From the NCBI GenBank assembly GCA_009780015.1, contig WRAW01000002.1, positions 12 through 64,011 on the forward strand: 64,000 nucleotides of DNA, written 5' to 3'. Every line of letters begins with the position of its first letter. The first letter of the stretch is position 1. The notes under the pieces are model-generated. The model searched no databases. It saw only the letters and a program-made list of their open reading frames with translations, and was not told the origin of the DNA. This document shows, in pieces, positions 199 through 57,096 of the stretch. This DNA comes from Defluviitaleaceae bacterium (GTDB taxonomy: Bacteria > Bacillota > Clostridia > Lachnospirales > WRAA01). Position numbers and translations under genes: made by a program.

Positions 199-447
199 TT
201 GGTTTTCAAAGCAAAAGGGATAACATTATTTTATTTTGCTCCATGCGACGGATATTTTAAAATTTTCTTAACTTATGGGAAGAATGCGGAAAAGGAGATG
301 AAACAATCGTATATCCCAGAACATGTTAAAGAAGCGATTTCTACCGCAATCGACTATGCAGAGGGAAAAACCTTTTTTATTGATGTGAAAGATGAAAGTG
401 ATTTAGAATCTGTATTCACCCTTCTTAGAATAAAACATGAATCGTAG
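199..447 (+). CDS. DUF3788-like protein, C-terminal part. Similarity continues upstream to about 103 with no start codon, so the gene may be frameshifted.
   Basis: The pattern GW.L.FK.KG..L....P..G.F...L..G..E....IDV.D...L..V..L..IK resembles the DUF3788 family. The in-frame upstream translation (QTQWDKIKYHVLENYQNITSVWKFYSKKAGWS) also looks family-like but lacks an ATG/GTG/TTG start. Confidence 0.35.
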   Translation: MVFKAKGITLFYFAPCDGYFKIFLTYGKNAEKEMKQSYIPEHVKEAISTAIDYAEGKTFFIDVKDESDLESVFTLLRIKHES

Positions 448-855
448 GTTGTTACGCCCTAATATATGTTCGGTAATTACAATTTGACAGAGGGTGGCGG
501 CTGGAAAACTGCTTGCCAAAGTCTGGGAATTTAAGCCGCAAAGCTGCAAGTTGTTCAAGCAGTTTGATGTTGACAACTAATCGTGTGTCTGATATAGTCA
601 AGGGACATAAGAATATGTATTCAATAACCGTCAAGATGGTGTTTTGCGTTTTTGAATACAGGTTCTAAGCAGAAAACTTATGGGAGCCGCGTAGGATTGC
701 ATAGTGTGCGTCCGTTACTTTACTAGACTTCTTGAGAAATCACAGATGTCTTCCTGGGTGTTTTGCTATACTCAGAGCTATGACAAGTGGAGATTTCATT
801 AAGGAGTCTATTGTTTGTGAGCAGAGTTAAATTTAAGAGAGGAGACGTGCGGTTT

Positions 856-2574
856 TTGAAGAGAACATGGCATAGATTTTGCCTGATTATACTGCTTGGT
901 TTCTTCATACTTCTTGTTACCGCTTGCGGAAGTGAGCAGCCGAACGGTGAGGGGTATGTCACAGATATATCGGAAGATGTGGAAAATATAGCGTATCTGC
1001 CGGAGGAAGACCTCGAGCCGGCTGTCGTAAACACGTTGTTTTCCGATATGCTGGCACAGATTGAGCGGCAGACGCAAGTTGATGAAATGCTTCTTGCTGA
1101 GCTTGACAGCGGAATATACAGCTTTGACTATCCGCTTGTGGTGGTCGATCCGTATGGGATGTCTCCGCTTTCAGCTTTGGCGTTGTTTATCAGCGACGAG
1201 CCGATGAGTATTTCAGTCTACGTTCCCGGAAAGACTGAGCACGCAAGCGTATTTTTTGCACTGGACGGATACAACACGCGACACGAAGTTCCGATTTACG
1301 GGCTTTATCCCGACGAGCCGAACATGGTCGAGCTTACCGGGAGAACACGCGGCGGCGAAGTGAGAAGGGTTGTTCTTGAAATCCGGCCCGACCCGCTGCC
1401 GCCGGAATTGGCAAGAGACATTATAATCACGAACTTGCCGCAGCCGGAGCGGCTTCAACCGGGCTTTAATTTTACATTTGGACACAAAGCCGCGTTTGAC
1501 GTTAATGGGGAGTACAGATGGTTTTACAATGATTTTACGCTGAGAGGGTTTGCGATGTATGGTTATAATGGCCATATGATTTTTGCTGCAGGCTCTTATC
1601 ACGAAGGAGATGTACTTCTCCTGGAAGTCAACATGCTTGGCAGGGTTATCAGCGTTTATCATTCGCCATATGGTATGCATCATGATGTAACGGATATCAA
1701 CGGAAGGAACCTGCTGGTTAATGGAAGCCATGGTGATACCGTGGAAGATTTCATATATGAGATTGACGTTGAAACCGGTGAGATAGTAAACAGGCTTGAT
1801 TTAAAGCGTGTACTGCAGAGAACCCGCACCGTCGGATTCCCGGAAGTTTGTACGGTCGACTGGTTCCATCACAATTCTACGGTGTATTATAATGGAGACA
1901 TTATTATTTCGGGAAGACGGCAATCCGCCGTTGTCAGGCTTTCCTGGCCTGAAGGCGAGCTGAGATGGATACTGGCCGACCATATCGGATGGAGTCCGAT
2001 GTTTCAGAAGTATTTGCTTACCCCTGTGGGTGATTATTTTGAGTGGTCATACGGTCAGCACGACCCGCAAATACTTCACGGTTTTGACGATGATCCCTAC
2101 ACGATTGATATCTTGCTGTTCGACAACGGCAACGGCAGATTTGACCATGACAGGGAGCTTCAACGGGCGGTTGCGAACAATGAGATCGAAGCCCCCGAGA
2201 ATTATTCAAGAATGGTACATTACCGCATAAACGAAAGAGACATGACTATCGAGCAGATATGGCAGTTTGGGAAAGAATTGGGATATGACTTTTTTTCCAA
2301 AGGCTGGAGCAACGCCATATTGCTGGAAAACGGAAACAGGCTTGGAGCGTTTGACAGATATGATCCCGAAATGGGCGGAAACTTTAACGCCAACATCATA
2401 GAAGTCGATTACTCAGGAAATATTATATGGGAAGCTTTCGGCACCAGCACTACCGAAGTAGGGGGATTCCATGTGTACCGCGTTGTCCGGTTGCCTCTAT
2501 ATACTTCCGCCGCAAACGATTTACGCATTGACGTGCCGGCGAGGGTGTTCATCCCGGAGGACAGGCTGCCTTAG
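856..2574 (+). CDS. Aryl-sulfate sulfotransferase (ASST)-like lipoprotein, paralog 1
   Basis: Taken from ORF 787..2574. It has a lipobox (LLVTAC-GS). The Arylsulfotran_N-like motif DPYGMSPLSALALF..SISVYVPGK...FDGYNTRHEVPIYGLYPD is present, with ASST-type His motifs (MHHDV, WFHHNS, GQHDP). The start is set at a TTG that aligns with the ATG starts of paralogs 2 and 3. A GTG at 847 is an alternative. Confidence 0.8.
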   Translation: MKRTWHRFCLIILLGFFILLVTACGSEQPNGEGYVTDISEDVENIAYLPEEDLEPAVVNTLFSDMLAQIERQTQVDEMLLAELDSGIYSFDYPLVVVDPYGMSPLSALALFISDEPMSISVYVPGKTEHASVFFALDGYNTRHEVPIYGLYPDEPNMVELTGRTRGGEVRRVVLEIRPDPLPPELARDIIITNLPQPERLQPGFNFTFGHKAAFDVNGEYRWFYNDFTLRGFAMYGYNGHMIFAAGSYHEGDVLLLEVNMLGRVISVYHSPYGMHHDVTDINGRNLLVNGSHGDTVEDFIYEIDVETGEIVNRLDLKRVLQRTRTVGFPEVCTVDWFHHNSTVYYNGDIIISGRRQSAVVRLSWPEGELRWILADHIGWSPMFQKYLLTPVGDYFEWSYGQHDPQILHGFDDDPYTIDILLFDNGNGRFDHDRELQRAVANNEIEAPENYSRMVHYRINERDMTIEQIWQFGKELGYDFFSKGWSNAILLENGNRLGAFDRYDPEMGGNFNANIIEVDYSGNIIWEAFGTSTTEVGGFHVYRVVRLPLYTSAANDLRIDVPARVFIPEDRLP

Positions 2575-2737
2575 AGCCTGTTAAGTATCTCACGTTATCA
2601 CCAGATTTGCGGCCAATTTTCCGCATATCTTCGTTGTTTCCTACTAACGTACCTTACAGGTACGCGTCGTAGTCACCGCTTCGACCTGCGAATAATTACC
2701 TGGCAAATCTGGTGATAACGAGACACTAAGCAGGCTC
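2574..2737. repeat. MITE-like palindromic intergenic element, copy A (GAGCCTGTT-type terminal inverted repeats)
   Basis: The roughly 37-nt terminal inverted repeats are gagcctgttaagtatctcacgttatcaccagatttgc and ggcaaatctggtgataacgagacactaagcaggctc. The internal hairpin gcgtacc-ttaca-ggtacgc is shared with copy B. The left end overlaps the TAG stop of paralog 1. Confidence 0.65.
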
Positions 2738-2765
2738 TTATTGAAAAACGATTGGAGTGCGGTTC

Positions 2766-4529
2766 ATGAAAAAAGTAATTCATGGATATTATCTGATGTT
2801 ATTATTTTCCTTCACTCTTCTGTTGACCGCTTGCGGGAGCGCGCCGCCAAACGGTGACGAGGATTTCGCGGACGTGTTGGAATATATCGGATACGCGAAA
2901 TACACGGAGTATACAGAGGATTCGGAAGATATAGCATACACGCCGGAAGAACTTCCCATACCCTTTGCTGAAAATCCTTTGTTTTTAAATATTCTGGAGC
3001 AAGTCGATTGGCAAGTGCAAGTTGACGAAATGCTTATTGCTGAACTAAACAGCGGAATATACAGCTTCGACGCGCCGCTTGTGGTGGCAGACCCCTATGG
3101 AATGTCGCCTCTTTCCGCCCTGGCTCTGTTTATAAGCGACGAGCCGCTGAACATTTCGGTCTATGTCCCCGGAAGGACAGAGAATACAAGCGTATCCTTT
3201 ACATTTGACGGCTATAACACAAGGCACGAAATACCGATTTTGGGGCTGTACCCCGACGCGCAGACCACGGTCGAACTTACGGGAAGAACGCAGGGCGGCG
3301 AAGTGAGGCGCGTCACCTTTGAGGTTCAGACCGAACCGCTTCCTCCTGAGCTTGAGAAAAACATCATACTTACCGACCTGGTTCAGCCGGAGAACTATCA
3401 GCCGGGCTTTAATTTTACGTTCAGGCCGAAAGCCGCCTTTGACGCGCATGGTGAGTATAGGTGGTTTTACAATCACTTCGGAGTACTGCAGGCAGCCATG
3501 TACGATTACAACGGCCACATGCTGTTTGCGGTAGGAGCGTATCATCATGGACACGCTCTCATATTTGAAGTGAATATGCTGGGCAAGATACTTAGCGTCT
3601 TCTATTCACCGTATGGGGTGTGTCACGATATTGCCGCTACCGACGAGGGGAATTTGATTGTCACCGGAAGCCGTGGGGACACAATAGAAGACTTCATTTA
3701 TGAAATAGATGTAACAACCGGCGAAATAGTCAACAGGCTTGATTTGAAGCGCGTATTGCAGCGAACGCGCACAGGCGGCTTTATGGCATATGAAAACTAC
3801 CCCGATAACTGGTTTCATCACAATGCTATTGTGTATGACAATGGGAGTATCATTGTTTCGGGAAGGAATCAATCCGCCGTAGTCAAGCTTTCCTGGCCTG
3901 AAGGCGAGCTTGAGTGGATACTGTCCGACCATACGGGCTGGAATCCTATGTTTCATAATTATTTGTTTACTCCGGTCGGCGCCGGTTTTGAATGGAGCCG
4001 CGGCCAGCATACCCCTACAATCCTTCATGATTTTGATAATAATCCCGATACAATGGATATATTGCTCCTTGACAATGGTAACGCCAGATTTCTTCATGAC
4101 GGTGAGCTCCAGCGCGCCCTTGCCAATAATGAGGTCATTTGGCCGGAGCGTTATTCGCGCATGGTACATTACCGTATAAATTTAAGAACCATGACTATTC
4201 AACAAATATGGCAGTTTGGTAAAGAATTGGGCGAAACGTACTTTGCCAGATGGGGAAGCAGCGCCCAGATGCTTGAAAACGGAAACAGGCTGGGAGTATT
4301 CGACAGACATATTTATTATCTTGGAGAGGGAAGAGGCATTAACACAAACTTTATCGAAGTTGATTCTTCGGGAAATATTATTTGGGAAGCGTACGCTACA
4401 AGCACTGATGCCATGGGAACGTTTAACGCCTATCGCGGTGAGCGCCGCCCGCTTTATACCGCCGCCGCGAACGATTTGCGCATTGGCGTGCCCGCAAGGG
4501 TATTAATCCCGGAGAATATGCTTCCGTAA
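2766..4529 (+). CDS. Aryl-sulfate sulfotransferase (ASST)-like lipoprotein, paralog 2
   Basis: Taken from ORF 2757..4529. It has a lipobox (LLLTAC-GS) and the same motif set as paralog 1. An ATG start follows a GGAG-like ribosome-binding site. Confidence 0.8.
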   Translation: MKKVIHGYYLMLLFSFTLLLTACGSAPPNGDEDFADVLEYIGYAKYTEYTEDSEDIAYTPEELPIPFAENPLFLNILEQVDWQVQVDEMLIAELNSGIYSFDAPLVVADPYGMSPLSALALFISDEPLNISVYVPGRTENTSVSFTFDGYNTRHEIPILGLYPDAQTTVELTGRTQGGEVRRVTFEVQTEPLPPELEKNIILTDLVQPENYQPGFNFTFRPKAAFDAHGEYRWFYNHFGVLQAAMYDYNGHMLFAVGAYHHGHALIFEVNMLGKILSVFYSPYGVCHDIAATDEGNLIVTGSRGDTIEDFIYEIDVTTGEIVNRLDLKRVLQRTRTGGFMAYENYPDNWFHHNAIVYDNGSIIVSGRNQSAVVKLSWPEGELEWILSDHTGWNPMFHNYLFTPVGAGFEWSRGQHTPTILHDFDNNPDTMDILLLDNGNARFLHDGELQRALANNEVIWPERYSRMVHYRINLRTMTIQQIWQFGKELGETYFARWGSSAQMLENGNRLGVFDRHIYYLGEGRGINTNFIEVDSSGNIIWEAYATSTDAMGTFNAYRGERRPLYTAAANDLRIGVPARVLIPENMLP

Positions 4530-4551
4530 CTAAGTGATAGGGGTGCAGTTC

Positions 4552-6282
4552 ATGAAAAGAATTGGTTATGGATTTTGTCTGATATTGGCGCTTGTTGTCA
4601 TTGCTCTTTTGTTGACGGCTTGCGGGGATGAGCAGTCAAACGGCGATGAGTATGTTACGGACATATCGGAAGACGCGGAAGATACGGTATACACGCCGGA
4701 GGAAGGCTATGAATCTGCCGTCGAAGATACATTGTTTATCGACATTCTGGAGCAAATCGAACGTCAGACGCGAGTTGATGAAATGCTTCTTGCCGAACTG
4801 GACAGCGGCGCGTACAGCTTTGACGATCCGCTGGTGGTGCTCGACCCATATGGGATGTCGCCGCTTGCGGCTCTGGCGCTGTTTGTAAGCGACGAACCGA
4901 TGAATATTTCGGTCTATGTACCCGGACGGTCTGAGCTTACAAGCGTCTACTTTACCTTCGACGGCTACAATACAAGGCATGAAGTGCCGATTTATGGACT
5001 GCATCCAGATAAGCTGAACAGGGTGGAGCTTACCGGAAGAACACGCGGCGGCCAATTGCGGAGCGTTATGCTTGAGATACAGACCGATCCGCTGCCGCCG
5101 GAGCTGGCGCAGCACATCCTGATTACGGACTTAGTACAGCCTGAGAGCTATCAGCCCGGGTTTAATTTTACATTCTGGTATAAAACCGCGTTTGATAAGT
5201 ATGGCGAGTATAGATGGTTTTACAATAACTTTGATCTCCTGGTTACGACTCTGTACGATTATCATGGTCACATGCTGTTTGCGGCGGGCGCGGGACTGTT
5301 TACAGAAGGAGACGTTCTCATAATCGAAGCAAACATGCTGGGCAAGATACTGAACGTATACCATTCGCCTTACGGAGCATGTCACGATATCGCGGAAACT
5401 AGCGGGGGAAACTTGATTGTTACCGGAAACCGCGGGGATGTGGCGGAAGACTTTATTTATGAAATAGATGCGGAAACGGGCGAAATAGTTAACAGGCTTG
5501 ATTTGAAGCGTGTATTGCAAAGAACGCGTACATCCGGCTTCCCGGAACATAGTCCGTCCAATTGGTTTCATCATAACGCACTTGTATACTATAATGGAAG
5601 CATTATTGTTTCGGGAAGACATCAATCCGCTGTTGTAAAGCTTTCATGGCCTGATGGCGAAGTTGAATGGATATTGTCCGACCATTCTGGGTGGAATCCC
5701 ATGTTTCAAAGATATCTGCTCACTCCCATCGGCGGAGATTTCGGGTGGAGTTTTGGTCAGCACGCCCCCGTAGTCCTTCCAGACCTTGATAATGACCCGG
5801 ATACAATAGATATTTTGTTATTCGATAATGGCAACGGCAGATTTTACCTTGACAGGGAGCTTCAGCGGGCAATCAGGAACAATGAGGTCGCCATTCCCGA
5901 GAATTTTTCAAGGATGGTGCACTACCGAATAAATGAAAGAACTATGACAATTGAGCAGATCTGGCAGTTTGGTGAAGAATTGGGCGAAGCCTTCTTTGCC
6001 GAATTTATGAGCAGCGCCCAGCCGCTTGAAAACGGAAACAGGCTGGGGGCGTTCGACAGAAGAATATTTATTGACGAGGTTGGCGTTGGTTTTAGTACAA
6101 GCTTTGTTGAAGTTGATTCTTCGGGAAATATTGTTTGGGAAACGTACGCAACAAGTACTGACGGCGTAGGAACATTTAACACTTATCGCGCCGAACGCCG
6201 CCCGCTTTACACCGTAGCCGCCAACGATCTGCGCATCGGCGTACCGGCGAGGGTATTCATCCCAGAGGACAGGCTGCCGTGA
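4552..6282 (+). CDS. Aryl-sulfate sulfotransferase (ASST)-like lipoprotein, paralog 3
   Basis: Taken from ORF 4534..6282. It has a lipobox (LLLTAC-GD) and is co-linear with paralogs 1 and 2 over its whole length. Confidence 0.8.
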   Translation: MKRIGYGFCLILALVVIALLLTACGDEQSNGDEYVTDISEDAEDTVYTPEEGYESAVEDTLFIDILEQIERQTRVDEMLLAELDSGAYSFDDPLVVLDPYGMSPLAALALFVSDEPMNISVYVPGRSELTSVYFTFDGYNTRHEVPIYGLHPDKLNRVELTGRTRGGQLRSVMLEIQTDPLPPELAQHILITDLVQPESYQPGFNFTFWYKTAFDKYGEYRWFYNNFDLLVTTLYDYHGHMLFAAGAGLFTEGDVLIIEANMLGKILNVYHSPYGACHDIAETSGGNLIVTGNRGDVAEDFIYEIDAETGEIVNRLDLKRVLQRTRTSGFPEHSPSNWFHHNALVYYNGSIIVSGRHQSAVVKLSWPDGEVEWILSDHSGWNPMFQRYLLTPIGGDFGWSFGQHAPVVLPDLDNDPDTIDILLFDNGNGRFYLDRELQRAIRNNEVAIPENFSRMVHYRINERTMTIEQIWQFGEELGEAFFAEFMSSAQPLENGNRLGAFDRRIFIDEVGVGFSTSFVEVDSSGNIVWETYATSTDGVGTFNTYRAERRPLYTVAANDLRIGVPARVFIPEDRLP

Positions 6283-12264: not shown

Positions 12265-12292
12265 ACCGGGCGTTGATAAGACGCCCGGTTTG
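12265..12292 (+). terminator. Candidate intrinsic terminator after the SLH gene
   Basis: The hairpin is accgggcgt-tgataag-acgcccggt, followed by a weak T-run (tttgtgg). Confidence 0.45.
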
Positions 12293-12308
12293 TGGTAGTA
12301 TCAGGGTC

Positions 12309-12524
12309 TAAGAGCCTGTTTAATATCTTTTCACCATTGTCTTGGCGGCTGATTTTCCGCCCTTCGTCGTCCCTTCCTTCTAGCGTACCTTCCAGGTACG
12401 CGTCGTCGTCAGCTCCTCCTACGCTGACGCTTCGATGCTAAACGCGTGCCACCGGCATACAGCATCCTAGAATGGCGAAAAATCAGGCTCGCCAATCCAA
12501 CGGCAAAAAGATATTAAACAGGTA
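12309..12524. repeat. MITE-like palindromic intergenic element, copy B (GAGCCTGTT-type terminal inverted repeats)
   Basis: The roughly 50-nt terminal inverted repeats are taagagcctgtttaatatcttttcaccattg...gctgattttccgcc and ggcgaaaaatcaggc...cggcaaaaagatattaaacaggta. The internal core cttcgtcgt..gcgtaccttccaggtacgcgtcgtcgtca is homologous to copy A. Confidence 0.65.
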
Positions 12525-28115: not shown

Positions 28116-28580
28116 ATGATTATTGAAACCGACAGGCTTGTATTGCGGGAGCTAACAACGGAAGACCTTGAGGAATTACATAACATTTTATCTGACCCTG
28201 AATCAATGCAACATTATCCAAATCCATTTACTTTTGAAAAATCAAAAGACTGGATTGAATGGAATATTGAGAATTACTCAGAATATGGGTTCGGATTATG
28301 GGCAGTAATTTTTAAAGCTGATAATAAATTTATAGGAGACTGCGGCATTACAATGCAAAATATCAATGGTGTTATGCAGCCTGAGATGGGATACCATATT
28401 GATAAAAGATACATAAGAAAGGGCTATGCAACAGAAGCGGCAAAGGCATGTATGGATTATGCTTTTTCGGTATTAAAATTTCAACAGCTATTTTCTTATA
28501 TGAAATATACCAATATGCCTTCTCAAAGAGTTTCGCAGAAAAATGGCATGAAATTTCTTACGGATGTATTCGGCATTTGA
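28116..28580 (+). CDS. GNAT family N-acetyltransferase (RimJ/RimL-like)
   Basis: Motifs are IETDRLVLRELTTEDLEELHNILSDPESMQHY and GYHIDKRYIRKGYATEAAKA. A GGAG ribosome-binding site precedes the ATG. Confidence 0.8.
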   Translation: MIIETDRLVLRELTTEDLEELHNILSDPESMQHYPNPFTFEKSKDWIEWNIENYSEYGFGLWAVIFKADNKFIGDCGITMQNINGVMQPEMGYHIDKRYIRKGYATEAAKACMDYAFSVLKFQQLFSYMKYTNMPSQRVSQKNGMKFLTDVFGI

Positions 28581-28645
28581 AAAGTGCAGCGTTTGGCGCC
28601 GCGTCCATTTGTTCGTTTAGAGAGTTAAAGTGTTGACAACAGGAA

Positions 28646-28757
28646 CCCATTTATGTGATAATAGCAGGCTAACGGCAGACTGCACGCCCATCCCGCAAAA
28701 GGCGCGGGACGGGCATTCAGCCTGCCGGCGCTTCGCGCAGCCTATCACATAAATCCC
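28646..28757. repeat. Palindromic intergenic element, copy F (a different terminal-repeat subtype)
   Basis: The terminal inverted repeats are cccatttatgtgata..ggct and agcctatcacataaatccc. The interior has a GC-rich hairpin (gcccatcccgc-aaaag-gcgcgggacgggc). The design matches the other elements. Confidence 0.45.
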
Positions 28758-29166
28758 TCTTGTAAACACATGAAATCTCGTTCTCCAAATGGATGCAGGG
28801 TGCTGCATTTTTGGGTGCCATATGTTGCACACCCCGGTGCCAAACGCTGCACTTTTTAATTGCCAAACACATACGGAATATAAGTGTGAGAAAAATGAGA
28901 TTACAAGGGTATACGGTATTAAAATTAAAGAATATCAGGAGCTTCATAATATAGAATCAATGCAATTTAGGTTTAAAGCAAATTTATGAGCTGTTAGGGT
29001 GAAAATAATGTAATTCAGGGAACTTCGCCACAATAATACCGAAGTTGTGGCAGGATCCGTGCTTACGCTGTTTACCACCTATGCGCAATACTGAAATAAA
29101 TGAATATTACTCTATGGGAATATTCAAAGATGGCGCAGTAGATTAAGTATTAGGGTTTATCATGCA

Positions 29167-38712: not shown

Positions 38713-39050
38713 ATGGATAACGAACTCAAAACAAATACCATCTTTCTTTATTCCGAAGGGGAGTACCAAATCTGTAAAAAAGGCTAGAGAAAGGCATGTA
38801 AGGAATGTGAAGAAAATATATGCCGAACAAAGAATTGCCGGGATTAAACCAAAGAAACGAGGCCGCAAACATGGAAATCAAAGGGATATATCTTTGGAGC
38901 AAGAAAGACAAATCCCAAATATCATTGTAGACAAATGTCCCGAGCAATTAAAGCTCCCTGGATATATGTGTACAAGAGCGGGTATAAGGAATTTAATAAA
39001 GCGCATGTGTGGACTTGACATACAATTATCCAAATTTGGGGTTAGGGTGC
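38713..39050 (+). pseudogene. IS630-family transposase remnant: N-terminal HTH region only, frameshifted and truncated
   Basis: The segment ..VKKIYAEQRIAGIKPKKRGRKHG..LSLEQERQI..IIVDKCPEQLKLPGYMCTRAGIRNLIKRMCGLDIQLS matches the IS630 N-terminal pattern (GL.pk.rGr......L...q...I......P.qL.l....WT...v..lI....G...s). No DDE domain follows. The upstream ATG at 38713 is in a different frame. Confidence 0.6.
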
Positions 39051-39063
39051 AAGCGTCAAAAAA

Positions 39064-39104
39064 GCGGCGGCCATATACTTTACGGTATGGCCGCCTTTAT
39101 TTGT
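39064..39104. terminator. Bidirectional intrinsic terminator
   Basis: The 10-bp stem is ggcggccata/tatggccgcc. It is flanked by an A-run on the left and tttatttgttt on the right. It lies just downstream of the minus-strand gene 39113..39577. Confidence 0.6.
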
Positions 39105-39112
39105 TTGAAGTT

Positions 39113-39577
39113 CTAATACCTACCTTTGATTATAAAGAAAGACCCGCGAATCTCCCCCGCGATTTTTGACTTTTGCCGCGCGAATTTGAATTTCTTCTCC
39201 AGTTCGGCAGGTACTTCCATCCCCATAGAAAGTTTAAGGCCGACGGCGCTCTTGGCGTCGTTTTCCAGAGCGTACATTATATTTATCCCAAGACCGTCCT
39301 CGTAATAAACATAGGTTATTTTAGCGCTTTCTATTACAAATTGCGAAGTCTCCAAGGGTTTTGCCGCAAACTCAATATCCCGTTCTTCTTTCAGAATCCT
39401 GTTTACATATTCCATAATTTCAGGCGTCTCATCGGCCGGCTTGGTAGTAAATGCGTGTCTGTGCTTGTTCATATAGTAACGCGCTTCGTTGGCACGCAGC
39501 CCGGCAAGGGCTTTTGCCACCGGCGAAGATTCCAGTCCAACCGTGGATACTTTCTCAAAATTAACTACGTATGACAT
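39113..39577 (-). CDS. Hypothetical protein (154 aa)
   Basis: It is an open frame with a GGGAGG ribosome-binding site upstream of the ATG, and it runs divergent to addB. I recognise no domain. Confidence 0.5.
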   Translation of the reverse strand: MSYVVNFEKVSTVGLESSPVAKALAGLRANEARYYMNKHRHAFTTKPADETPEIMEYVNRILKEERDIEFAAKPLETSQFVIESAKITYVYYEDGLGINIMYALENDAKSAVGLKLSMGMEVPAELEKKFKFARQKSKIAGEIRGSFFIIKGRY

Positions 39578-42700: not shown

Positions 42701-43039
42701 GACGTGCTCGAAGAACTGCTGGGAAAGTTCAAGATGACCGGCCTTGTGCTGGCCGACGACGATGTGATAAACGCCATGGACTCCGGCTTAACCGGACGCT
42801 CAAACATTGTGCCTGTTCACATCAAGACCGATGGAAGCTTCTCTTCAAGGGGAACAAAGGTCGCCGACGAGGAAGAATTCACAAGGCTTCGCGCCGCGGT
42901 CACGACAAAGGCGGCCGAAATCGCAAGGAGAATGTCCGACGGCGACATAGAAGTCAAGCCCCTGGCCAAGCCTAATGGCGCGGTCTCTTGCGATTACTGC
43001 GGTTACGCGAATATATGCCACATTGAGTTTTCACGCTAG
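39710..43039 (+). CDS. addB: Helicase-exonuclease AddAB, subunit AddB (RexB)
   Basis: The N-terminal Walker A motif is FGGSGAGKT. The C-terminal nuclease and Fe-S Cys cluster reads CPFAYF....CDYCGYANIC. The length is about 1110 aa. The start is set at MSLQYIFGG. Confidence 0.85.
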   Translation: MSLQYIFGGSGAGKTRRCLSEITQAARDSTKPLIYIVPEQFTLESERLLCDFSPSGAITLPQVLSFQRLSYHTFSKTGKLAGKLLDEVGKKMLLQKLLLRHRDELAFFAQTVERDGFIDSCDRAFREFAQYNVTPEELARRVAQVSQQDGGRGILGYKLADIARLYELFTAYISERYIITEQAANFVPDKLAASDFLTGCRVWIDGFTGFTAQEYGIIGGLFSKAEIVSVALCIEEPHTSYSNISENDPMSLMKQCVTRITELARLSGVPVLEPIRLTKKWRFEDSPDMAFLERRYLDYNVHTFDGVPHGISITGAPGVHAEAEQAAAEIIALVRGEGLRFADIALVCANPMAYEREIRAVFAAHDIPFFLDVRSDIALHPLTQLVCHAASVLAYDFRHEDVFAFLKTGLTPLNRDEIDLLENYAVKMGIRGGKWRAKTWTKGFENEYSEECLNDLRKRVVKALQPFAGKLKRGKSSPIRTYAACLFDMLEKLGIPDRTHDGEAVSFMQVLDKLTAILEKMVEIMGDEEVPPDGFEKILRIGVKSADLGIIPPTLDQVIIGSAERTRLPKIAALIVLGANDGILPAKKEEDAILTDSERATLSALGTQLAPDSRTQSLQGPFMMYGMLTQPERFLRLFYRTDSSDGQALKPSVIIERVRSLFPKAAEYLISDAEYHRPVTTAKAVFSRIGAALRQLRVGGSATDSETALLKYFRESPGFAERLLRLEQVSFEKTSRRFLSQKSIDMLYFSEMFSDISRLERYMQCPFAYFAHYNLRLRGRRRFAAGAPDYGSFYHEVLKDFGASLALHRLDWRELSVGQIDELTGQAVAKIAPQLANGVLLSTPRYEYIVGRMARIAKRSIWALTQHLRRGSFTPVASELGFGVNAAISGITIETGNGRKLMLQGRIDRVDIFDSGGKRYVKVIDYKSGGASFDISDIYLGTQLQLMTYLDIFMKTGHEYLSDVGGAAQPVPKMTPGGVLYFKLDDPILDEDKLRSGDVLEELLGKFKMTGLVLADDDVINAMDSGLTGRSNIVPVHIKTDGSFSSRGTKVADEEEFTRLRAAVTTKAAEIARRMSDGDIEVKPLAKPNGAVSCDYCGYANICHIEFSR

Positions 43040-43284
43040 GATGTGTCGTCAATAGATTTTTCGGAATTTTGTTGGTCGAATTCCACCCCACGAAGCCAAA
43101 GTCAGGCTTTATGGGGCCCTGGGTCGTCGGTTGCCCCTCCTGCGCCGGTGCTTAGGATGCTTAAACGTGTGTTGCCGACACATAGCATCCTTGCGTACCT
43201 TTCAAGTACGCGGGTTGTCATCTCCCGGATTGGCGTAAAATCGCCTCAAAATCTTCCCGAAAAACTATTGGCGACACACCCTAG
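43036..43284. repeat. MITE-like palindromic intergenic element, copy C (TTTTCGG-type terminal inverted repeats)
   Basis: The terminal inverted repeats are ctaggatgtgtcgtcaatagatttttcgg and ccgaaaaactattggcgacacaccctag. Internal hairpins include gcgtacctttcaagtacgc and aggatgct..agcatcct, as in copy B but in inverted order. The left end contains the addB TAG stop. Confidence 0.6.
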
Positions 43285-43316: not shown

Positions 43317-44738
43317 ATGATATTAGACTACTTGAAAGCTCGCGCGGTAAAGGATATCTATCCCTTCCACATGCCGGGGCACAAGGGCAACTCCGACTAC
43401 TTCCGCGACATCGATCATATTCTGATGGACATAACAGAGGTGCGCGGCTCCGACAACTTGCGTCAGCCGAGCGGCATTATCAAGGATGCGGAGGATATGC
43501 TGGCCAAAGCCTACGGAGCAAGCCGGAGCCTGATTTGCGTAAACGGTTCAAGCGCCGGGATGCTGGCCGCTATGCTGTATGCAGCCTGTGACGGCGAAAA
43601 GGTTGTGGTGGCGCGCAACAGCCACGTCAGTGTCCATAGCGGGCTGGCGCTTTCCGGTGCGCTGCCGGTGTTTGTGTATCCGTCGGTTACGCCATACGGC
43701 TTCGCCGGCGGGCTGAGTCCGTCCGCCGTCGAGGAGGCTCTCGCCGCGAACGGTGATGTCCGAGCCGTGTTCATCACAAGTCCGACATACGAGGGCCTTT
43801 GCAGCGACGTAGCCGCAATCGCCAGGACAGCGCGCTCCCACGGCGCGCTCCTGATAGTTGACGAGGCTCACGGCGCGCACTTTGGACTACACACGGACTT
43901 TCCCGGCAGTTCTACGGTGCACGCCGACATCGTCGTGCAATCCCTGCACAAGACCATGGTCGCGCCAAATCAGGCCGCCGTAATACACGCCGGCCCAAAC
44001 ATAGACGCCGAGCGCCTCAAAGCCTGCCTGAACATGGTTCAGACCACCAGTCCGTCATACATAATCATGGCAATGATCGAGCGCTGCGCCGCAATAGCCT
44101 CAGACCCTGCGGACTTCCAGCGTTATGCCCGCGTGGTCGGCTCGTTTCGCGCCAGCCTTGCCATGCTTGAAAACATCAGATTGGTAGGATCAGATATACG
44201 CGGCAGTTACGACGTACACGACATAGATGCCGGAAAGCTGGTATTTTTGGCCAGGCGCGGCGGCGGACAGGATATTTACCGCTATTTGCTGGAACAGCAC
44301 CGGCTTGAGCTGGAGATGTACGGTCTGTCCCATGCTGTGGCCATGACAAGCATCGCCGATACGGAAGCCGGTTTTTCCCGCTTGTACTACGCCCTGCGCG
44401 AACTTGACAGGAAGCTTGCATCCCACGCGGAAGCGCCCACGGATATAACCGATATTTACGCAATAGGCTCAGTGATACCCAAACACTCCGCCACGGCGAT
44501 TTCTCCGCGGCTTGCCCAGTTGCGCCCCTCACATCCCTGCGGTCTTGACGAAGCGGCCGGAAGGATATGCGCGTCTCCCGTTACGCCATACCCCCCGGGT
44601 ATACCGTTGCTGCTCCCCGGTGAAATAATTGAAGAAAGTACCATACACCACTTGAAAAAGTTGGCGCATAGGGATATAATGATAGACGGTATATTCGACG
44701 GGAAGGTAAAGGTTGTAAGGGATGGAAATAGGAATTAG
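43317..44738 (+). CDS. PLP-dependent Orn/Lys/Arg decarboxylase family protein (YaaO/SpeA-like)
   Basis: Motifs are FHMPGHKG, VDEAHGAHF and the PLP-binding lysine motif QSLHKT. Confidence 0.8.
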   Translation: MILDYLKARAVKDIYPFHMPGHKGNSDYFRDIDHILMDITEVRGSDNLRQPSGIIKDAEDMLAKAYGASRSLICVNGSSAGMLAAMLYAACDGEKVVVARNSHVSVHSGLALSGALPVFVYPSVTPYGFAGGLSPSAVEEALAANGDVRAVFITSPTYEGLCSDVAAIARTARSHGALLIVDEAHGAHFGLHTDFPGSSTVHADIVVQSLHKTMVAPNQAAVIHAGPNIDAERLKACLNMVQTTSPSYIIMAMIERCAAIASDPADFQRYARVVGSFRASLAMLENIRLVGSDIRGSYDVHDIDAGKLVFLARRGGGQDIYRYLLEQHRLELEMYGLSHAVAMTSIADTEAGFSRLYYALRELDRKLASHAEAPTDITDIYAIGSVIPKHSATAISPRLAQLRPSHPCGLDEAAGRICASPVTPYPPGIPLLLPGEIIEESTIHHLKKLAHRDIMIDGIFDGKVKVVRDGNRN

Positions 44739-45093
44739 CATCCAGGAGATTATATATGCCGCCATAGCCGCGCTGGTTATTACGTGGATTGTGGAATTCT
44801 TCCTTAGAAGTTTTCGCGTGATGTTCGCGCGGACTACCATTTTCGAGTACAAGCACAGCGACTTCGAGTGGATTGTAAACAAGTGCTACAGCCTGTTTCC
44901 CAAGGATGCCGTGTTGTTTAAGGGCAGAACTTATTCCCGCGGCGAGACGGTTCGCATAATAACGCTGGAGCATAAAGTATTCGAGGGAAGCCTGGTTGGG
45001 CAAAACTATGACAACATGATCTGCCTGCTTACGAGGAAGTACATTATTACGCACGATTTGTCAAACATTAAGGAAATGAATATTATCGAGTAA
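44722..45093 (+). CDS. Small membrane protein (hypothetical)
   Basis: It has an N-terminal transmembrane helix (IIYAAIAALVITWIVEFFL). It overlaps the decarboxylase stop by 17 nt. Confidence 0.45.
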   Translation: MEIGISIQEIIYAAIAALVITWIVEFFLRSFRVMFARTTIFEYKHSDFEWIVNKCYSLFPKDAVLFKGRTYSRGETVRIITLEHKVFEGSLVGQNYDNMICLLTRKYIITHDLSNIKEMNIIE

Positions 45094-45165
45094 AACTTAT
45101 GTTGAACACAGGTTTTACAAGACCTCGGATGAGGATACTCTCATTGTGGATCGAATGATGAGGCG

Positions 45166-56018: not shown

Positions 56019-56133
56019 TAGACCTTTTCGGGAATTGGGCAATGCCGGATTTGCGCGGATTTTTGCCGCAAGGCAAGGAGTGGCGCTGTATTGCGGCAAA
56101 AAGACGGCATCGACTGATTCCCGAAAAGGTCTA
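56019..56133. repeat. MITE-like palindromic intergenic element, copy E (TTTTCGG-type terminal inverted repeats)
   Basis: The terminal inverted repeats are tagaccttttcgggaat and attcccgaaaaggtcta. The inner repeat pair is gcggatttttgccgcaa and ttgcggcaaaaagac. Confidence 0.6.
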
Positions 56134-56225: not shown

Positions 56226-56864
56226 ATGTATCCATACGATTCTGACCCTTCGTATGAAGTTTTTGTCAAGAATGCGGCTTTGCCGCCAGGCAGGGAAGAG
56301 GTTGAGGCAAGCGAAGTTGACGGAGCAGGAAACCAGTCAAGGCGTTTATTAGCTTTTTCCGCTGAGCAGGAAGACGACGCGTTTTCCGGCGATCAAGAAG
56401 ATGAATTCGATGCCGGGCAGGAAGGCGTATTCGCTGCCGAGCATGGAAGGCACGGAGATCGCGGCCGCCGGGGTGGTCGTGGACATGACCGCGGACACAG
56501 AAGACCTCCCAGACCTGGCGGCGGACACGGGCACGACAGGCCTCCTGGGCACGGCGGCGGACACGGGCACGGAGGCGATCCCGGACACGGCGGAGGAGGC
56601 GGACACGGACACAGAAGACCTTCCGGCGCGCCGCCCTCATTCATTCCATCTGAGTCGGCGTCGTTTCGCGCGGTGGATTCGCGCGCGATTTCCCGCTGCT
56701 TGAACAGCTTCACGTACGTTTGGCTCATGTTTGGGCATGGCTTCTGGATGTTTCCGACATTTGTCGGCCCGCGTTCTATCGCGGGATATAGGTGGGGGCG
56801 TTTCGGCTGGACATACACAGGGTTTGACCTTCGCGCGATAAAGTCGTTCACCTGTTCGGGATAG
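56226..56864 (+). CDS. Protein with an acidic N-terminus, a His/Gly/Arg/Pro-rich low-complexity core and a conserved-looking aromatic-rich, Cys-containing C-terminal domain (hypothetical)
   Basis: An AGGGAG ribosome-binding site lies 8 nt before the ATG. The core reads GRHGDRGRRGGRGHDRGHRRPPRPGGGHGHDRPPGHGGGHGHGGDPGHGGGGGHGH. The C-terminus reads C..SFTYVWLMFGHGFWMFPTFVGPRSIAGYRWGRFGWTYTGFDLRAIKSFTC. Confidence 0.55.
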   Translation: MYPYDSDPSYEVFVKNAALPPGREEVEASEVDGAGNQSRRLLAFSAEQEDDAFSGDQEDEFDAGQEGVFAAEHGRHGDRGRRGGRGHDRGHRRPPRPGGGHGHDRPPGHGGGHGHGGDPGHGGGGGHGHRRPSGAPPSFIPSESASFRAVDSRAISRCLNSFTYVWLMFGHGFWMFPTFVGPRSIAGYRWGRFGWTYTGFDLRAIKSFTCSG

Positions 56865-56932
56865 AGCCTGTTTAGTATCACGTTGGTGACCGCTAATCAG
56901 TCACCAACGTGAGATACTAAACAGGCCTCTTA
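56862..56932. repeat. MITE-like palindromic element, copy D (short form consisting only of GAGCCTGTT-type terminal inverted repeats)
   Basis: The sequence is tagagcctgtttagtatcacgttggtgac-cgctaatca-gtcaccaacgtgagatactaaacaggcctctta. The left end supplies the TAG stop of the upstream gene. Confidence 0.7.
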
Positions 56933-57096
56933 GAACCTATTTTCATATTGTTTTCACCATCCCCGCGCTCGAAAAGAAGTGGTTTCGCCGTTGGGCGTGG
57001 GGACGGCAAATTTTTTTGGCCCTACATAAAATCCACATAAAGGTGTGATAGAATGAATCTATCGAAAGAATATATCACATTTTGGAGGTAGCGATT

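What the first reader, a model, noticed from the sequence alone, without database searches (positions are those of the whole stretch)
2574..2737. Family of MITE-like palindromic intergenic elements with at least six copies in 64 kb, three of which supply the stop codon of the upstream gene
**Copies.** The elements are at 2574-2737 (A), 12309-12524 (B), 56862-56932 (D), 43036-43284 (C), 56019-56133 (E) and probably 28646-28757 (F).

**Shared design.** All have long terminal inverted repeats around GC-rich internal hairpins.
- A, B and D share the terminus TA(A/G)AG(G)CCTGTTTA(A/G)TATC. A and B also share an internal core containing the hairpin GCGTACC-TTnCA-GGTACGC.
- C and E share a TTTTCGG(G)AAT-containing terminus.
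- D is a minimal form made only of the terminal repeats.

**Stop codons.** In A, C and D the TAG stop of the upstream CDS (ASST-1, addB and the His/Gly-rich protein) lies inside the element terminus.

**Possible origin and role.** The ends are TA-flanked, as expected for IS630/Tc1-mariner-type MITEs, and an IS630 transposase remnant lies at 38.7-39.05 kb. As RNA, the elements would form very long hairpins and could act as terminators, insulators or stabilisers of mRNA 3' ends. I do not recognise them as any named repeat family.
Basis: seen in the sequence. Interest (0 to 1): 0.62.

Follow-up and report, generated by a model that had tools for sequence, protein, structure and literature searches.

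The report
IS5-type miniature transposons sharing one core
The repeats are real small non-coding jumping elements (MITEs) of a termite-gut Clostridia bacterium, moved by IS5-family (not IS630) transposases; they often land on stop codons because they target TAA/TTA or CTAG, which is an ordinary kind of element with one odd feature, a conserved strand-specific inner core shared by elements with different ends.

Summary
Five of the six listed copies (A, B, C, D, E) are real. F is an unrelated singleton.

They belong to a very abundant modular repeat population. It has about 480 regions, covers about 3% of the 2.77-Mb draft genome, and lies at 115 of 366 contig ends.

There are four terminus classes:
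- **T1** (GAACCTGTRTTCA) is the dominant class.
- **T2** (GAGCCTGTTTARTATC) includes A, B and D.
- **T3** (GGGTGTGTCG..) includes C.
- **T4** (GACCTYTTCGG..) includes E.

T1 and T2 are flanked by exact 3-bp TWA direct repeats. T3 and T4 are flanked by TA.

Full-length IS5-family insertion sequences with the same ends exist in related genomes. This holds for T2 (DUF4096 plus DDE_Tnp_1) and for T3 (DDE_Tnp_1). The IS630 idea is therefore not supported.

Sites C and E are empty in a congeneric genome.

The stop-codon overlaps are real and general (25 of 108 complete elements). They follow from the target sequence: either the duplicated triplet is the gene's own TAA, or the TA of the duplication plus the terminal G makes TAG.

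All four classes share one about 85-nt core with fixed polarity. One strand folds better in 96 of 98 copies. The core shows no orientation bias relative to genes, and its role is unknown.

This is a new member of a known kind.

The parts
2574..2737 (+). Element A: a 164-nt T2-class MITE (subtype with TATCTCACGTT arms). The pyrimidine-rich core strand is on +. The central hairpin is at 2647-2665. The 3-bp duplication TTA lies at 2571-2573 and 2738-2740.
2572..2574 (+). TAG stop of ASST-1, made of the TA of the duplicated TTA plus the first G of element A. The reconstructed empty site reads ..CTG CCT TAT TGA. The two tandem paralogues end ..LP-stop.
12312..12522 (+). Element B: a 211-nt T2-class MITE. 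It holds hairpin H1 (12383-12401) and one extra H3-type hairpin module (12434-12467). TAA lies at 12309-12311. The right end lacks its last 3 bases.
43039..43281 (+). Element C: a 243-nt T3-class MITE (ends GGRTGTGTCGYCAATAG). It holds modules H2 (43086-43116), an H3-like module, and H1 (43193-43211). It is flanked by TA (43037-38 and 43282-83) within a CTAG-type target.
43037..43039 (+). TAG stop of addB, made of the flanking TA plus the first G of C. The empty site would read CGC TAG ATA, so the insertion went into the gene's own stop codon.
56021..56131 (-). Element E: a 111-nt T4-class MITE (ends GACCTTTTCGGGAAT), TA-flanked. It is a short form that lacks the central hairpin. The pyrimidine-rich strand is on -.
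56864..56928 (.). Element D: a 65-nt T2-class internal-deletion derivative with arms only. Its first G completes the TAG stop (56862-56864) of the His/Gly-rich protein. The G001 orthologue runs two codons further (..TCSGRF-stop).
56932..56946 (+). Solo T1-like end GAACCTATTTTCATA abutting D, preceded by TTA.
611..665 (.). T1-class mini-element of 55 nt, with the duplication TAA at 608-610 and 666-668.
406..418 (+). Solo T1 end GAATCTGTATTCA, preceded by TTA.
45094..45116 (.). T1 TIR-only remnant (a 23-nt palindrome) lying directly after the TAA stop (45091-45093) of ORF 44722-45093.
28646..28757 (+). Element F is NOT a family member. It is a singleton palindrome behind a promoter-like TTGACA-17-TGTGATAAT (28632-28664).
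38750..39169 (+). The claimed IS630 remnant. It gives only sub-threshold helix-turn-helix hits and has no DDE domain. It is not linked to the elements.

Best explanation
**What the elements are.** A, B, C, D and E are MITEs: deletion derivatives of insertion sequences that keep only the ends and are moved in trans. All belong to one modular superfamily that has colonised this genome.

**How they move.**
- A, B and D (T2), and the dominant T1 class, are moved by IS1031-like IS5-family transposases. These cut at GAR-CCTGT ends and duplicate 3 bp at a (c)TWA(g) target.
- C (T3) is moved by a second, IS427-like IS5-family transposase that duplicates TA in CTAR.
- The partner of E (T4) is unknown. 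E is also TA-flanked.

**Why they sit on stop codons.** The targets are TAA/TTA or CTAG, and only insertions that do not destroy genes or promoters survive. Many copies therefore sit exactly on a stop codon.
- In some, the duplicated triplet is the gene's own TAA.
- In others, TA plus the terminal G creates TAG, changing the protein end by 0-2 residues.

**Length classes and chimeras.**
- Length classes (about 65, 125, 164, 208, 255, 290 and 348 nt) arise from gain or loss of about 44-nt hairpin modules between short direct repeats.
- Homologous recombination between the shared cores produces chimeras with mixed ends.

**Shown:** ends, duplications, copy number, partner insertion sequences, empty sites, and stop-codon statistics.

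**Inferred:** trans-mobilisation, the deletion and recombination history, and that survival bias explains the position of the elements.
For: **Abundance.**
- Self-BLAST finds about 480 repeat regions totalling 84.8 kb.
- 115 of 366 contig ends lie in them.
- Terminus counts are far above the control.

**Target duplications.**
- T1: 56 of 72 complete elements have identical flanking triplets (TAA/TAA 30, TTA/TTA 23). The palindromic alternative (TAA left with TTA right, or the reverse) is seen only 5 times.
- T2: 18 of 23 have identical flanking triplets.
- The target logo is c-TWA-g.
- Nested insertions into known sequence prove a 2-bp TA duplication for the GGG-ended class, and show TA/TA flanks for T4.

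**Partner insertion sequences.**
- G031:C237 holds an about 866-bp insertion sequence with GAGCCTGTCTAGTATCT at both ends and TAA on both sides.
  - It matches NCBIfam transpos_IS5_3, DUF4096 and DDE_Tnp_1.
  - It is about 59% identical to annotated IS5-family transposases.
- The same end caps insertion-sequence fragments in termite-gut Defluviitaleaceae MAGs.
- The T3 end caps a DDE_Tnp_1 insertion sequence in G193, G121 and G225.

**Empty sites.** In G001 (same genus), addB is followed directly by the next gene. The E site also lacks the element.

**Stop codons.**
- 25 of 108 elements touch a stop. This covers 26 terminus contacts: the duplication is the stop itself at 17, and TA+G=TAG at 9.
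- A TAA stop is the target in 16 of 95 elements, against 6.6% expected (p = 5e-4).
- 21 of 71 elements lie within 3 nt of the upstream stop. They keep a median 36 nt before the next start.

**Module structure.**
- Module variants are position-specific.
- A chimera with a T2 left end, a T3 left end plus core, and a T2 right end lies at C42:1290-1600.

**Literature.** A 3-nt target is a stated feature of the IS1031 group (PMC2516522).
Against: - No full-length insertion sequence with T1-T4 ends is assembled in this 84%-complete MAG. Present-day mobility in this organism is therefore not shown.
- The second metagenome strain (X2) carries C at the same place with no differences, so no insertion polymorphism was seen.
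- The empty sites come from a genome only 67-85% identical at these loci, so the junctions are not base-exact.
- Several window copies have imperfect ends:
  - the right end of B is truncated;
  - the flanks of D do not match (ATA and TTA);
  - the reconstructed empty site of A gives LPY-stop, whereas its paralogues end LP-stop.
- A plain MITE model does not explain why the core is more conserved than the arms, or why one strand folds better.
Confidence: 0.85

Rival explanations
1. **The first reader's view.** The elements are IS630/Tc1-mariner-type MITEs that duplicate TA. They would be mobilised by IS630 transposases such as the remnant at 38.7-39.2 kb.
For: - C and E are flanked by TA, and C lies in a CTAG-like target. 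IS630 itself is known to use this target (my knowledge).
- Two DDE_3 (IS630) genes exist in the genome, on C147 and C151.
- The partner of E was not found.
Against: - A, B, D and the T1 class have 3-bp TWA duplications.
- Partners for T2 and T3 encode DDE_Tnp_1 or DUF4096, not DDE_3.
- The ends of the IS630 copy on C147 (TACAGTCATTTGAA) match none of T1-T4; clear ends could not be read for the truncated, frameshifted copy on C151, whose preserved end also shows no match.
- The window 'remnant' has only sub-threshold helix-turn-helix hits.
Confidence: 0.05
2. **The core is the selected unit.** In this view the unit under selection is the about 85-nt core:
- stem TTTTCCGCC/GGCGAAAAA;
- two CGTCGTC..TCCTCCTAG strands that do not pair with each other;
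- a central hairpin.

The core would be a strand-specific folded RNA or single-stranded DNA module. It would either help transposition (for example by bringing the two ends together, or by binding a host factor) or serve the host. It rides on interchangeable IS5-type ends. This can be true together with the main explanation.
For: **Shared across classes.** The same core sits in all four terminus classes, which have two different duplication types.
- Between classes, the core is 70% identical and the arms are 42-45% identical.
- Within a class, the figures are 83% and 69-70%.

**Shared across genomes.**
- In relatives of other families, only the core matches.
- The loop motifs persist while the central hairpin sequence changes (G037, G058, L104, Ruminococcus L050).

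**Structure.**
- 32 of 44 predicted pairs show double changes that keep the pair.
- Polarity is fixed.
- The purine-rich strand is more stable in 96 of 98 copies: mean -14.6 kcal/mol, and about twice as many G-U pairs.
Against: - There is no orientation bias relative to co-directional flanking genes: 31 sense and 38 antisense. In Clostridia this is also a proxy for the replication strand.
- There is no enrichment at convergent gene pairs.
- There are no terminator tails and no Rfam match.
- All copies descend from common masters, so the strand asymmetry may be inherited once rather than selected many times.
- Recombination between cores (the C42 chimera) could homogenise them without any function.
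- Short forms that lack the core (D, E, the mini-elements) still look like mobile copies.
Confidence: 0.2
3. **REP/BIME-like view.** The elements would be mosaic palindromic units spread by a Y1 (RAYT/IS200-type) transposase acting on single-stranded hairpins.
For: - The body is a modular mosaic of hairpins separated by conserved linkers.
- Folding is strand-asymmetric.
- The copy number is very high.
Against: - The genome has no Y1_Tnp domain, although the same search finds the domain in 6 of 14 control genomes.
- The elements have long terminal inverted repeats plus exact target duplications. Y1 elements lack both (the Y1 properties are my knowledge).
- Matching DDE insertion sequences exist.
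Confidence: 0.02

Closest known systems
IS5 family, IS1031 group insertion sequences and their MITE derivatives
   Same: - The ends begin GAG/GAA.
- The target duplication is 3 bp (TNA/TWA).
- The partner is about 0.87 kb with two frames, DUF4096 plus DDE_Tnp_1.
- This applies to A, B, D and the T1 class.
   Different: - The MITE body is not just two insertion-sequence ends. Past the first about 19 nt it shares nothing with the partner.
- It carries a conserved modular core.
- No named ISfinder member was compared, because no ISfinder copy is held.
IS5 family, IS427-like insertion sequences (2-bp TA duplication, GG ends)
   Same: - The C class has GGG ends and TA flanks in a CTAR target.
- Related genomes have a DDE_Tnp_1 insertion sequence with the same end.
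- The C-terminal motif ..LKRWRGIATRY.. is typical of this group (my knowledge).
   Different: - Group assignment within IS5 rests on duplication length and end sequence only.
All copies lie at contig ends.
Tourist MITEs / PIF-Harbinger transposons of eukaryotes
   Same: - They have a TWA (TAA/TTA) 3-bp duplication, are short palindromic non-coding elements, and show length classes.
- The transposase superfamily is related to IS5. The T3 partner also scores on DDE_Tnp_4.
   Different: - This is a bacterial host.
- The stop-codon landing is a consequence of a compact genome.
RUP of Streptococcus pneumoniae and Correia/NEMIS of Neisseria (TA-duplicating bacterial MITEs)
   Same: - They are abundant intergenic hairpin MITEs, found at gene ends.
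- They have size classes caused by internal deletions.
   Different: - RUP is tied to the IS630 family, and the transposase that moves Correia elements is not established (my knowledge).
- The partners found here are IS5-type.
BIME/REP mosaic elements of enterobacteria
   Same: They are mosaics of several hairpin types joined by conserved linkers, in very high copy number.
   Different: - REPs lack terminal inverted repeats and target duplications, and depend on RAYT.
- None of this fits here.

Membership tests
MITE (non-autonomous DNA transposon) | Terminal inverted repeats | tested here: met
   All five elements have terminal inverted repeats. There are 108 complete pairs genome-wide.
MITE (non-autonomous DNA transposon) | Target-site duplication as direct repeats | tested here: met
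   T1: 56 of 72 have identical TNA triplets. T2: 18 of 23. Nested cases prove TA for the GGG-ended class.
MITE (non-autonomous DNA transposon) | Small, non-coding, many copies | tested here: met
   Elements are 59-412 nt. There are about 480 regions. No ORF is conserved in them.
MITE (non-autonomous DNA transposon) | An autonomous element with the same ends | tested here: met
   - T2: the G031 insertion sequence has 17-19 nt identical at the end.
- T3: the G193 and G225 insertion-sequence ends match.
- T1: only a looser match, in G058.
- T4: none found.
- None was found in the window's own genome.
MITE (non-autonomous DNA transposon) | Presence/absence at orthologous sites | tested here: met
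   Sites C and E are empty in the congeneric G001. This is at genus level only. No polymorphism was seen between the near-identical strains X1 and X2.
MITE (non-autonomous DNA transposon) | Mobilisation in trans by the transposase | not testable with these tools
   This needs a transposition assay.
IS5 family derivative (IS1031-like) for A, B, D | 3-bp TNA duplication and GAG-type ends | tested here: met
   the group feature is taken from PMC2516522 and from my knowledge of ISfinder groups.
IS5 family derivative (IS1031-like) for A, B, D | Partner encodes a DDE_Tnp_1-type transposase (with DUF4096) | tested here: met
   NF033580 E = 1e-29 and 1e-24. PF13340 E = 2.6e-18 and PF01609 E = 1.4e-18.
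IS630/Tc1-mariner derivative | 2-bp TA duplication | tested here: not met
   Not met for A, B and D, which have 3-bp TWA. Met for C and E, but TA is also made by IS427-like IS5 elements.
IS630/Tc1-mariner derivative | Ends shared with a DDE_3 transposase gene | tested here: not met
   The ends of the C147 IS630 copy are unrelated, and the preserved end of the truncated C151 copy shows no match. The T3 partner is DDE_Tnp_1.
REP/BIME (RAYT-dependent) | Y1 transposase (RAYT) in the genome; no TIR or TSD | tested here: not met
   No PF01797 hit. TIRs and TSDs are present.
Known structured RNA (Rfam) | Match to a covariance model at its gathering score | tested here: not met
   The only match in the window is a tRNA. 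Relaxed scans of B, C and F give only chance-level hits.
Intrinsic terminator | GC-rich hairpin followed by a T-run | tested here: not met
   Only two weak 5- to 7-pair hits lie inside A and B, at chance level (15 found, 13.2 expected). There are none at the outer hairpins.

The most novel reading that the evidence does not exclude
**The reading.** The about 85-nt core is not passive cargo. It is a mobile, strand-specific structured module kept by selection.
- It has paired stems that are free to change in sequence.
- It has two conserved non-pairing CGTCGTC / TCCTCCTAG (GACGACG / CTAGGAGGA) strands.
- It has an excess of G-U pairs on the purine-rich strand.

The module would repeatedly acquire new IS5-type ends, of both the TWA- and TA-duplicating kinds. 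It would have spread among gut Clostridia: Defluviitaleaceae, Ruminococcus and Oscillospiraceae relatives show the same AGGA..GACGA-hairpin-AGGA..GACGA design.

**Context from this scan.** Earlier notes report similar 'conserved core on interchangeable IS5-type ends' elements in unrelated phyla. I did not check those notes. If they are right, this would be one instance of a widespread undescribed class.
Probability: 0.2. Interest if true: 0.7.

Novelty: new member of a known kind. Interest (0 to 1): 0.34.

Why it matters
**Practical.**
- These repeats make up about 3% of the genome and sit at a third of all contig ends. They are therefore a main reason why MAGs of this termite-gut lineage are fragmented.
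- They shift annotated gene ends by a codon or two.

**Biological.**
- The data give a clean, quantified example of how target choice (TWA, CTAG) plus purifying selection places bacterial MITEs exactly on stop codons without harming proteins.
- They show one body carried by at least four kinds of ends that belong to two IS5 subgroups.
- If the conserved, strand-specific core has a function, the family would be a mobile structured nucleic-acid module rather than a simple insertion-sequence remnant. This can be tested directly with reporter and transposition assays.

Tried and rejected
- **Rfam.** I scanned the whole window at gathering score and B, C and F at relaxed E-values. Nothing credible turned up.
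- **IS630 origin.** I rejected it because:
  - the DDE_3 copies have unrelated ends;
  - tblastn of those proteins on the window finds nothing;
  - the window ORF has only sub-threshold helix-turn-helix hits.
- **RAYT/REP origin.** There is no Y1_Tnp domain.
- **F as a family member.** It is a singleton in this genome, with one 73% relative in G017 in a different gene context.
- **Terminator role.** There are no T-tails and no excess over shuffles.
- **Orientation or gene-arrangement bias.** None was found.
- **Autonomous partner in the own genome.**
  - I found only a degenerate IS5 fragment (C10, about 37.53-37.97 kb).
  - I also found an insertion-sequence N-terminus at a contig end (C149) whose end, GGGCGTGTTTGAAAA, resembles a fifth nested class and none of T1-T4.
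- **Insertion polymorphism in metagenome runs.** Strain X2 carries an identical C.
- **RNA evidence.** No RNA run is held.
- **H2/H3 hairpins as independently mobile mini-elements.** I rejected this because their sequence variants are position-specific and show no flanking duplication.
- **Partner of T4.** It was not found in 15 related genomes.
Full report
**1. The observation**

The sequences at 2574-2737 (A), 12309-12524 (B), 43036-43284 (C), 56019-56133 (E) and 56862-56932 (D) are long imperfect palindromes.
- As single strands they fold far better than shuffled controls, with z-scores of -7 to -12.
- A BLAST of the six listed elements against the window's own assembly gave many hits for A-E and only the self-hit for F. 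The assembly is 2.77 Mb in 183 contigs, 51% G+C, 83.6% complete.
- F is therefore not part of the family.

**2. Scale of the repeat population**

- A self-comparison of the genome finds about 480 regions that recur at least five times. They total 84.8 kb (3% of the assembly) and have a median length of 165 bp.
- 115 of the 366 contig ends lie inside such repeats.
- The most frequent 14-mers of the genome all come from them.

**3. Four kinds of ends**

Regular-expression searches define four terminus classes. Each is compared with a reversed-genome control.

| Class | Terminus | Termini found | Control | Window copies |
|---|---|---|---|---|
| T1 | GAACCTGTRTTCA | 242 | 5 | small copies only |
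| T2 | GAGCCTGTTTARTATC | 86 | 2 | A, B, D |
| T3 | GGRTGTGTCGYCAATAG | 32 | 0 | C |
| T4 | GACCTYTTCGGRAAT | 29 | 4 | E |

- 108 complete elements could be paired: 72 T1, 23 T2, 9 T3, 3 T4 and one mixed.
- 70 unpaired ends face a nearby contig end.
  - a 55-nt mini-element at 611-665 with TAA on both sides;
  - a solo end at 406-418;
  - a TIR-only remnant at 45094-45116;
  - a T1-like end at 56932-56946 abutting D.
- D is an internal-deletion derivative of the A subtype. It joins 41 nt of the left arm to 23 nt of the right arm.
- C and E do not share a terminus. They share only a TTTTCGGRAAT stretch at different depths.

**4. Target duplications**

*T1 and T2.*
- For T1, the three bases outside the two ends are identical in 56 of 72 elements (TAA/TAA 30, TTA/TTA 23, TGA/TGA 2, TCA/TCA 1).
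- If these bases were part of the inverted repeat, the pattern would be TAA on one side and TTA on the other. That is seen only 5 times.
- For T2, 18 of 23 match.
- This is a true 3-bp TNA (mostly TWA) duplication.
- The reconstructed targets show a weak c-TWA-g preference.
- A itself has TTA at 2571-2573 and 2738-2740.

*T3 and T4.*
- T3 elements are flanked cTA...TAr.
- TA is its own complement, so I used nested insertions into known sequence.
  - A GGG-ended element inserted in a T4 element (C17) has exactly one extra TA.
  - Another, inserted in the core of a T3 element (C8), also has exactly one extra TA.
  - A T4 element nested in a T1 element is flanked TA/TA.
- There are thus two duplication types: 3 bp for T1 and T2, and 2 bp for T3 and T4.

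**5. Autonomous partners**

*In the own genome.* It holds only fragments:
- a degenerate IS5-type remnant on C10;
- an IS5-type N-terminus at the end of C149, whose end is GGGCGTGTTTGAAAA;
- two IS630 (DDE_3) copies, of which the C147 copy has the unrelated end TACAGTCATTTGAA and the truncated C151 copy shows no match.

*T2 partner.*
- Genome G031 (same order) has an about 866-bp insertion sequence with GAGCCTGTCTAGTATCT at both ends and TAA on both sides. The end is identical to T2 copies for 17-19 nt.
- It matches NCBIfam transpos_IS5_3, and Pfam DUF4096 and DDE_Tnp_1.
- It is about 59% identical to annotated IS5-family transposases on plasmids.
- A scan of 185,579 species genomes for the T2 end found it capping insertion-sequence ends or fragments in termite-gut Defluviitaleaceae MAGs and many other gut anaerobes.
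- The same scan found it on MITEs in Ruminococcus, Oscillospiraceae and a termite-gut spirochaete.
- About 70 chance matches are expected in that collection. Only genomes with several hits, or hits with TWA flanks and insertion-sequence or MITE context, count.

*T3 partner.*
- The T3 end caps an insertion sequence in G193, G121 and G225.
- Its left end is followed by ATG..RHDISD.
- Its right end follows ..LKRWRGIATRYSKHT... The frame scores on DDE_Tnp_1 at E = 2e-17.

*Conclusion.*
- Both A/B/D and C derive from IS5-family elements, of two subgroups.
- A 3-nt target is given in the literature as a feature of the IS1031 group (PMC2516522).
- No partner was found for T4. It occurs as 164-167-nt MITEs in G000, G001 and G037.

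**6. The 'IS630 remnant'**

- The frame at 38750-39169 looks like a transposase helix-turn-helix region by eye. It scores only E = 0.03-0.08 on HTH_32, HTH_28 and HTH_29, below their thresholds.
- It has no DDE_3 match.
- tblastn with the genome's own IS630 proteins finds nothing there.
- Whatever it is, it is not the partner of these elements.

**7. Empty sites**

I searched the congeneric genome G001 with joined flanks. It is 67-85% identical at these loci.
- The addB end and the next gene are contiguous in G001, separated by a few bases. In the window they are 277 nt apart.
- The E site lacks the element in G001.
- The orthologue of the His/Gly-rich protein ends ..TCSGRF-stop in G001 and ..TCSG-stop in the window.
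- These are genus-level comparisons, not base-exact empty sites.
- Contigs of a second termite-gut metagenome (X2) carry C at the same place without a single difference. No polymorphism was seen.

**8. Stop codons**

- For A, TA of the duplicated TTA plus the first G gives TAG. The reconstructed empty site reads CTG CCT TAT TGA, and the two tandem paralogues end LP-stop.
- For C, the target CTAG already contained addB's TAG, so the stop is kept.
- For D, the protein lost about two residues.

Genome-wide figures, using my own crude gene calls (longest ORFs chosen greedily, 86% coding):
- 25 of 108 complete elements touch a stop.
- This covers 26 terminus contacts. The duplicated triplet is the stop itself at 17 (TAA 16, TGA 1). 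At 9 the stop is TA+G=TAG.
- A TAA stop is the target in 16 of 95 T1/T2 elements, against 6.6% expected from available TWA sites (p = 5e-4).
- In co-directional gene pairs, 21 of 71 elements lie within 3 nt of the upstream stop. The median distance to the next start is 36 nt.

I read this as target preference plus survival of harmless insertions, not as a device.

**9. One core, fixed polarity**

*Shared core.*
- All four classes share the same interior: TTTTCCGCC, then ACTCGTCGTCAnnTCCTCCTA, then GCGTACC-loop-GGTACGC, then GTCGTCGTCAnnTCCTAGAT, then TGGCGAAAAA.
- The two CGTCGTC..TCCT stretches are direct copies, not inverted copies. They face each other as a large loop.
- Every element therefore has a pyrimidine-rich strand and a purine-rich strand. 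An extra module (H3) always follows that polarity.

*Conservation and pairing.*
- Between classes, the core is 70% identical and the arms 42-45%.
- 32 of 44 predicted pairs show double changes that keep pairing.
- In relatives of other families, the loop motifs persist while the central hairpin sequence differs.
- The purine-rich strand is predicted to be more stable in 96 of 98 elements. The mean difference is 14.6 kcal/mol, with about twice as many G-U pairs. This holds in all classes and arm subtypes.

*No positional or orientation bias.*
- In co-directional gene pairs, the pyrimidine-rich strand is sense 31 times and antisense 38 times.
- The share of convergent, divergent and co-directional sites matches the genome.
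- No hairpin has a T-tail.
- Rfam has no match.
- No RNA data are available.

The function of the core, if any, is open.

**10. Length classes and chimeras**

- Lengths cluster at about 63-79, 125-131, 162-168 (mode 164), 207-215, 248-263, 289-306 and 346-356 nt.
- The steps correspond to about 44-nt hairpin modules in fixed slots, and each slot has its own sequence variant:
  - CACGAAGCC before the outer stem;
  - CATAAAGCC after CCGCCAC;
  - CACAAAGCC after the central hairpin.
- Position-specific variants argue that long forms are masters and short forms are deletion derivatives between the short direct repeats. They argue against the modules being mobile on their own.
- C42:1290-1600 is a chimera: a T2 left end, then a T3 left end and core, then a T2 right arm. 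This shows that recombination between cores can exchange ends.

**11. Verdict**

- The MITE reading is correct. The IS630 assignment is wrong.
- The elements are IS5-family MITEs of a well-known kind. Earlier notes of this scan on other windows of the same genome reached the same view, and I re-derived it independently here.
- What is unusual is one conserved, strand-specific core carried by at least four kinds of ends from two IS5 subgroups.
- I rate the finding as a new member of a known kind, with moderate-to-low interest. About one chance in five remains that the core is a selected mobile structured module.

Noticed in passing
window 28558-28878: Element F sits inside a larger inverted repeat (arms 28558-28601 and 28835-28878, 84% complementary). 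It starts with a strong promoter-like site, TTGACA-17-TGTGATAAT. A 73%-identical, about 155-nt copy exists once in genome G017, in a different gene context. It may be a small RNA gene or another rare mobile unit.
   Followed up: partly
L015 (G031:C237) about 2218; also G031:C85 and G057:C26: IS5-type partner copies carry one in-frame TAA in the first frame (..REQFELIR-stop-ELES..), where the G058 copy has AAG (Lys). Three copies in two genomes each have one TAA. These may be decayed copies or something else. I did not compare the positions.
   Followed up: no
G000 contig ends (genome-wide): 115 of 366 contig ends lie in these repeats. The MITE population is a main cause of the fragmentation of this MAG.
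   Followed up: yes
G000:C42:1290-1600: A chimeric element: a T2 left end, then a T3 left end and core, then a T2 right arm. No T3 right end is present.
   Followed up: partly
L047, L057, L074, L089-L092, L096, L107, L110 (Spirochaetales MAG Kf353_bin16): A termite-gut spirochaete carries many MITEs with the same T2 end and TWA flanks, but a completely different body (GGGATTGAAGCGGAAATCC..). One IS5-type transposase clade seems to serve unrelated MITEs across phyla in the termite gut.
   Followed up: no
L091, L053 (contigs binned as a Nitrososphaerota archaeon, Nl494_bin6): A degenerate 862-bp IS5-type insertion sequence with T2 ends lies on contigs assigned to an archaeal bin. This suggests mis-binning or cross-domain transfer.
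   Followed up: no
G000:C149:1-300: An IS5-type insertion sequence (end TTA|GGGCGTGTTTGAAAA) is inserted into an IS256-like transposase gene. Its end resembles a fifth, nested MITE class (GGGYGTGTTTTCAAACC) seen inside elements on C8 and C17.
   Followed up: partly
window 12266-12295: A GC-rich hairpin, ACCGGGCGT..ACGCCCGGT followed by TTG, lies just upstream of element B. It looks like the real terminator of the upstream gene, and B is inserted just downstream of it.
   Followed up: no
window 787-6282: Three tandem arylsulfotransferase (ASST) paralogues, 70-80% identical at the DNA level. Each has a lipoprotein-like N-terminus.
   Followed up: no
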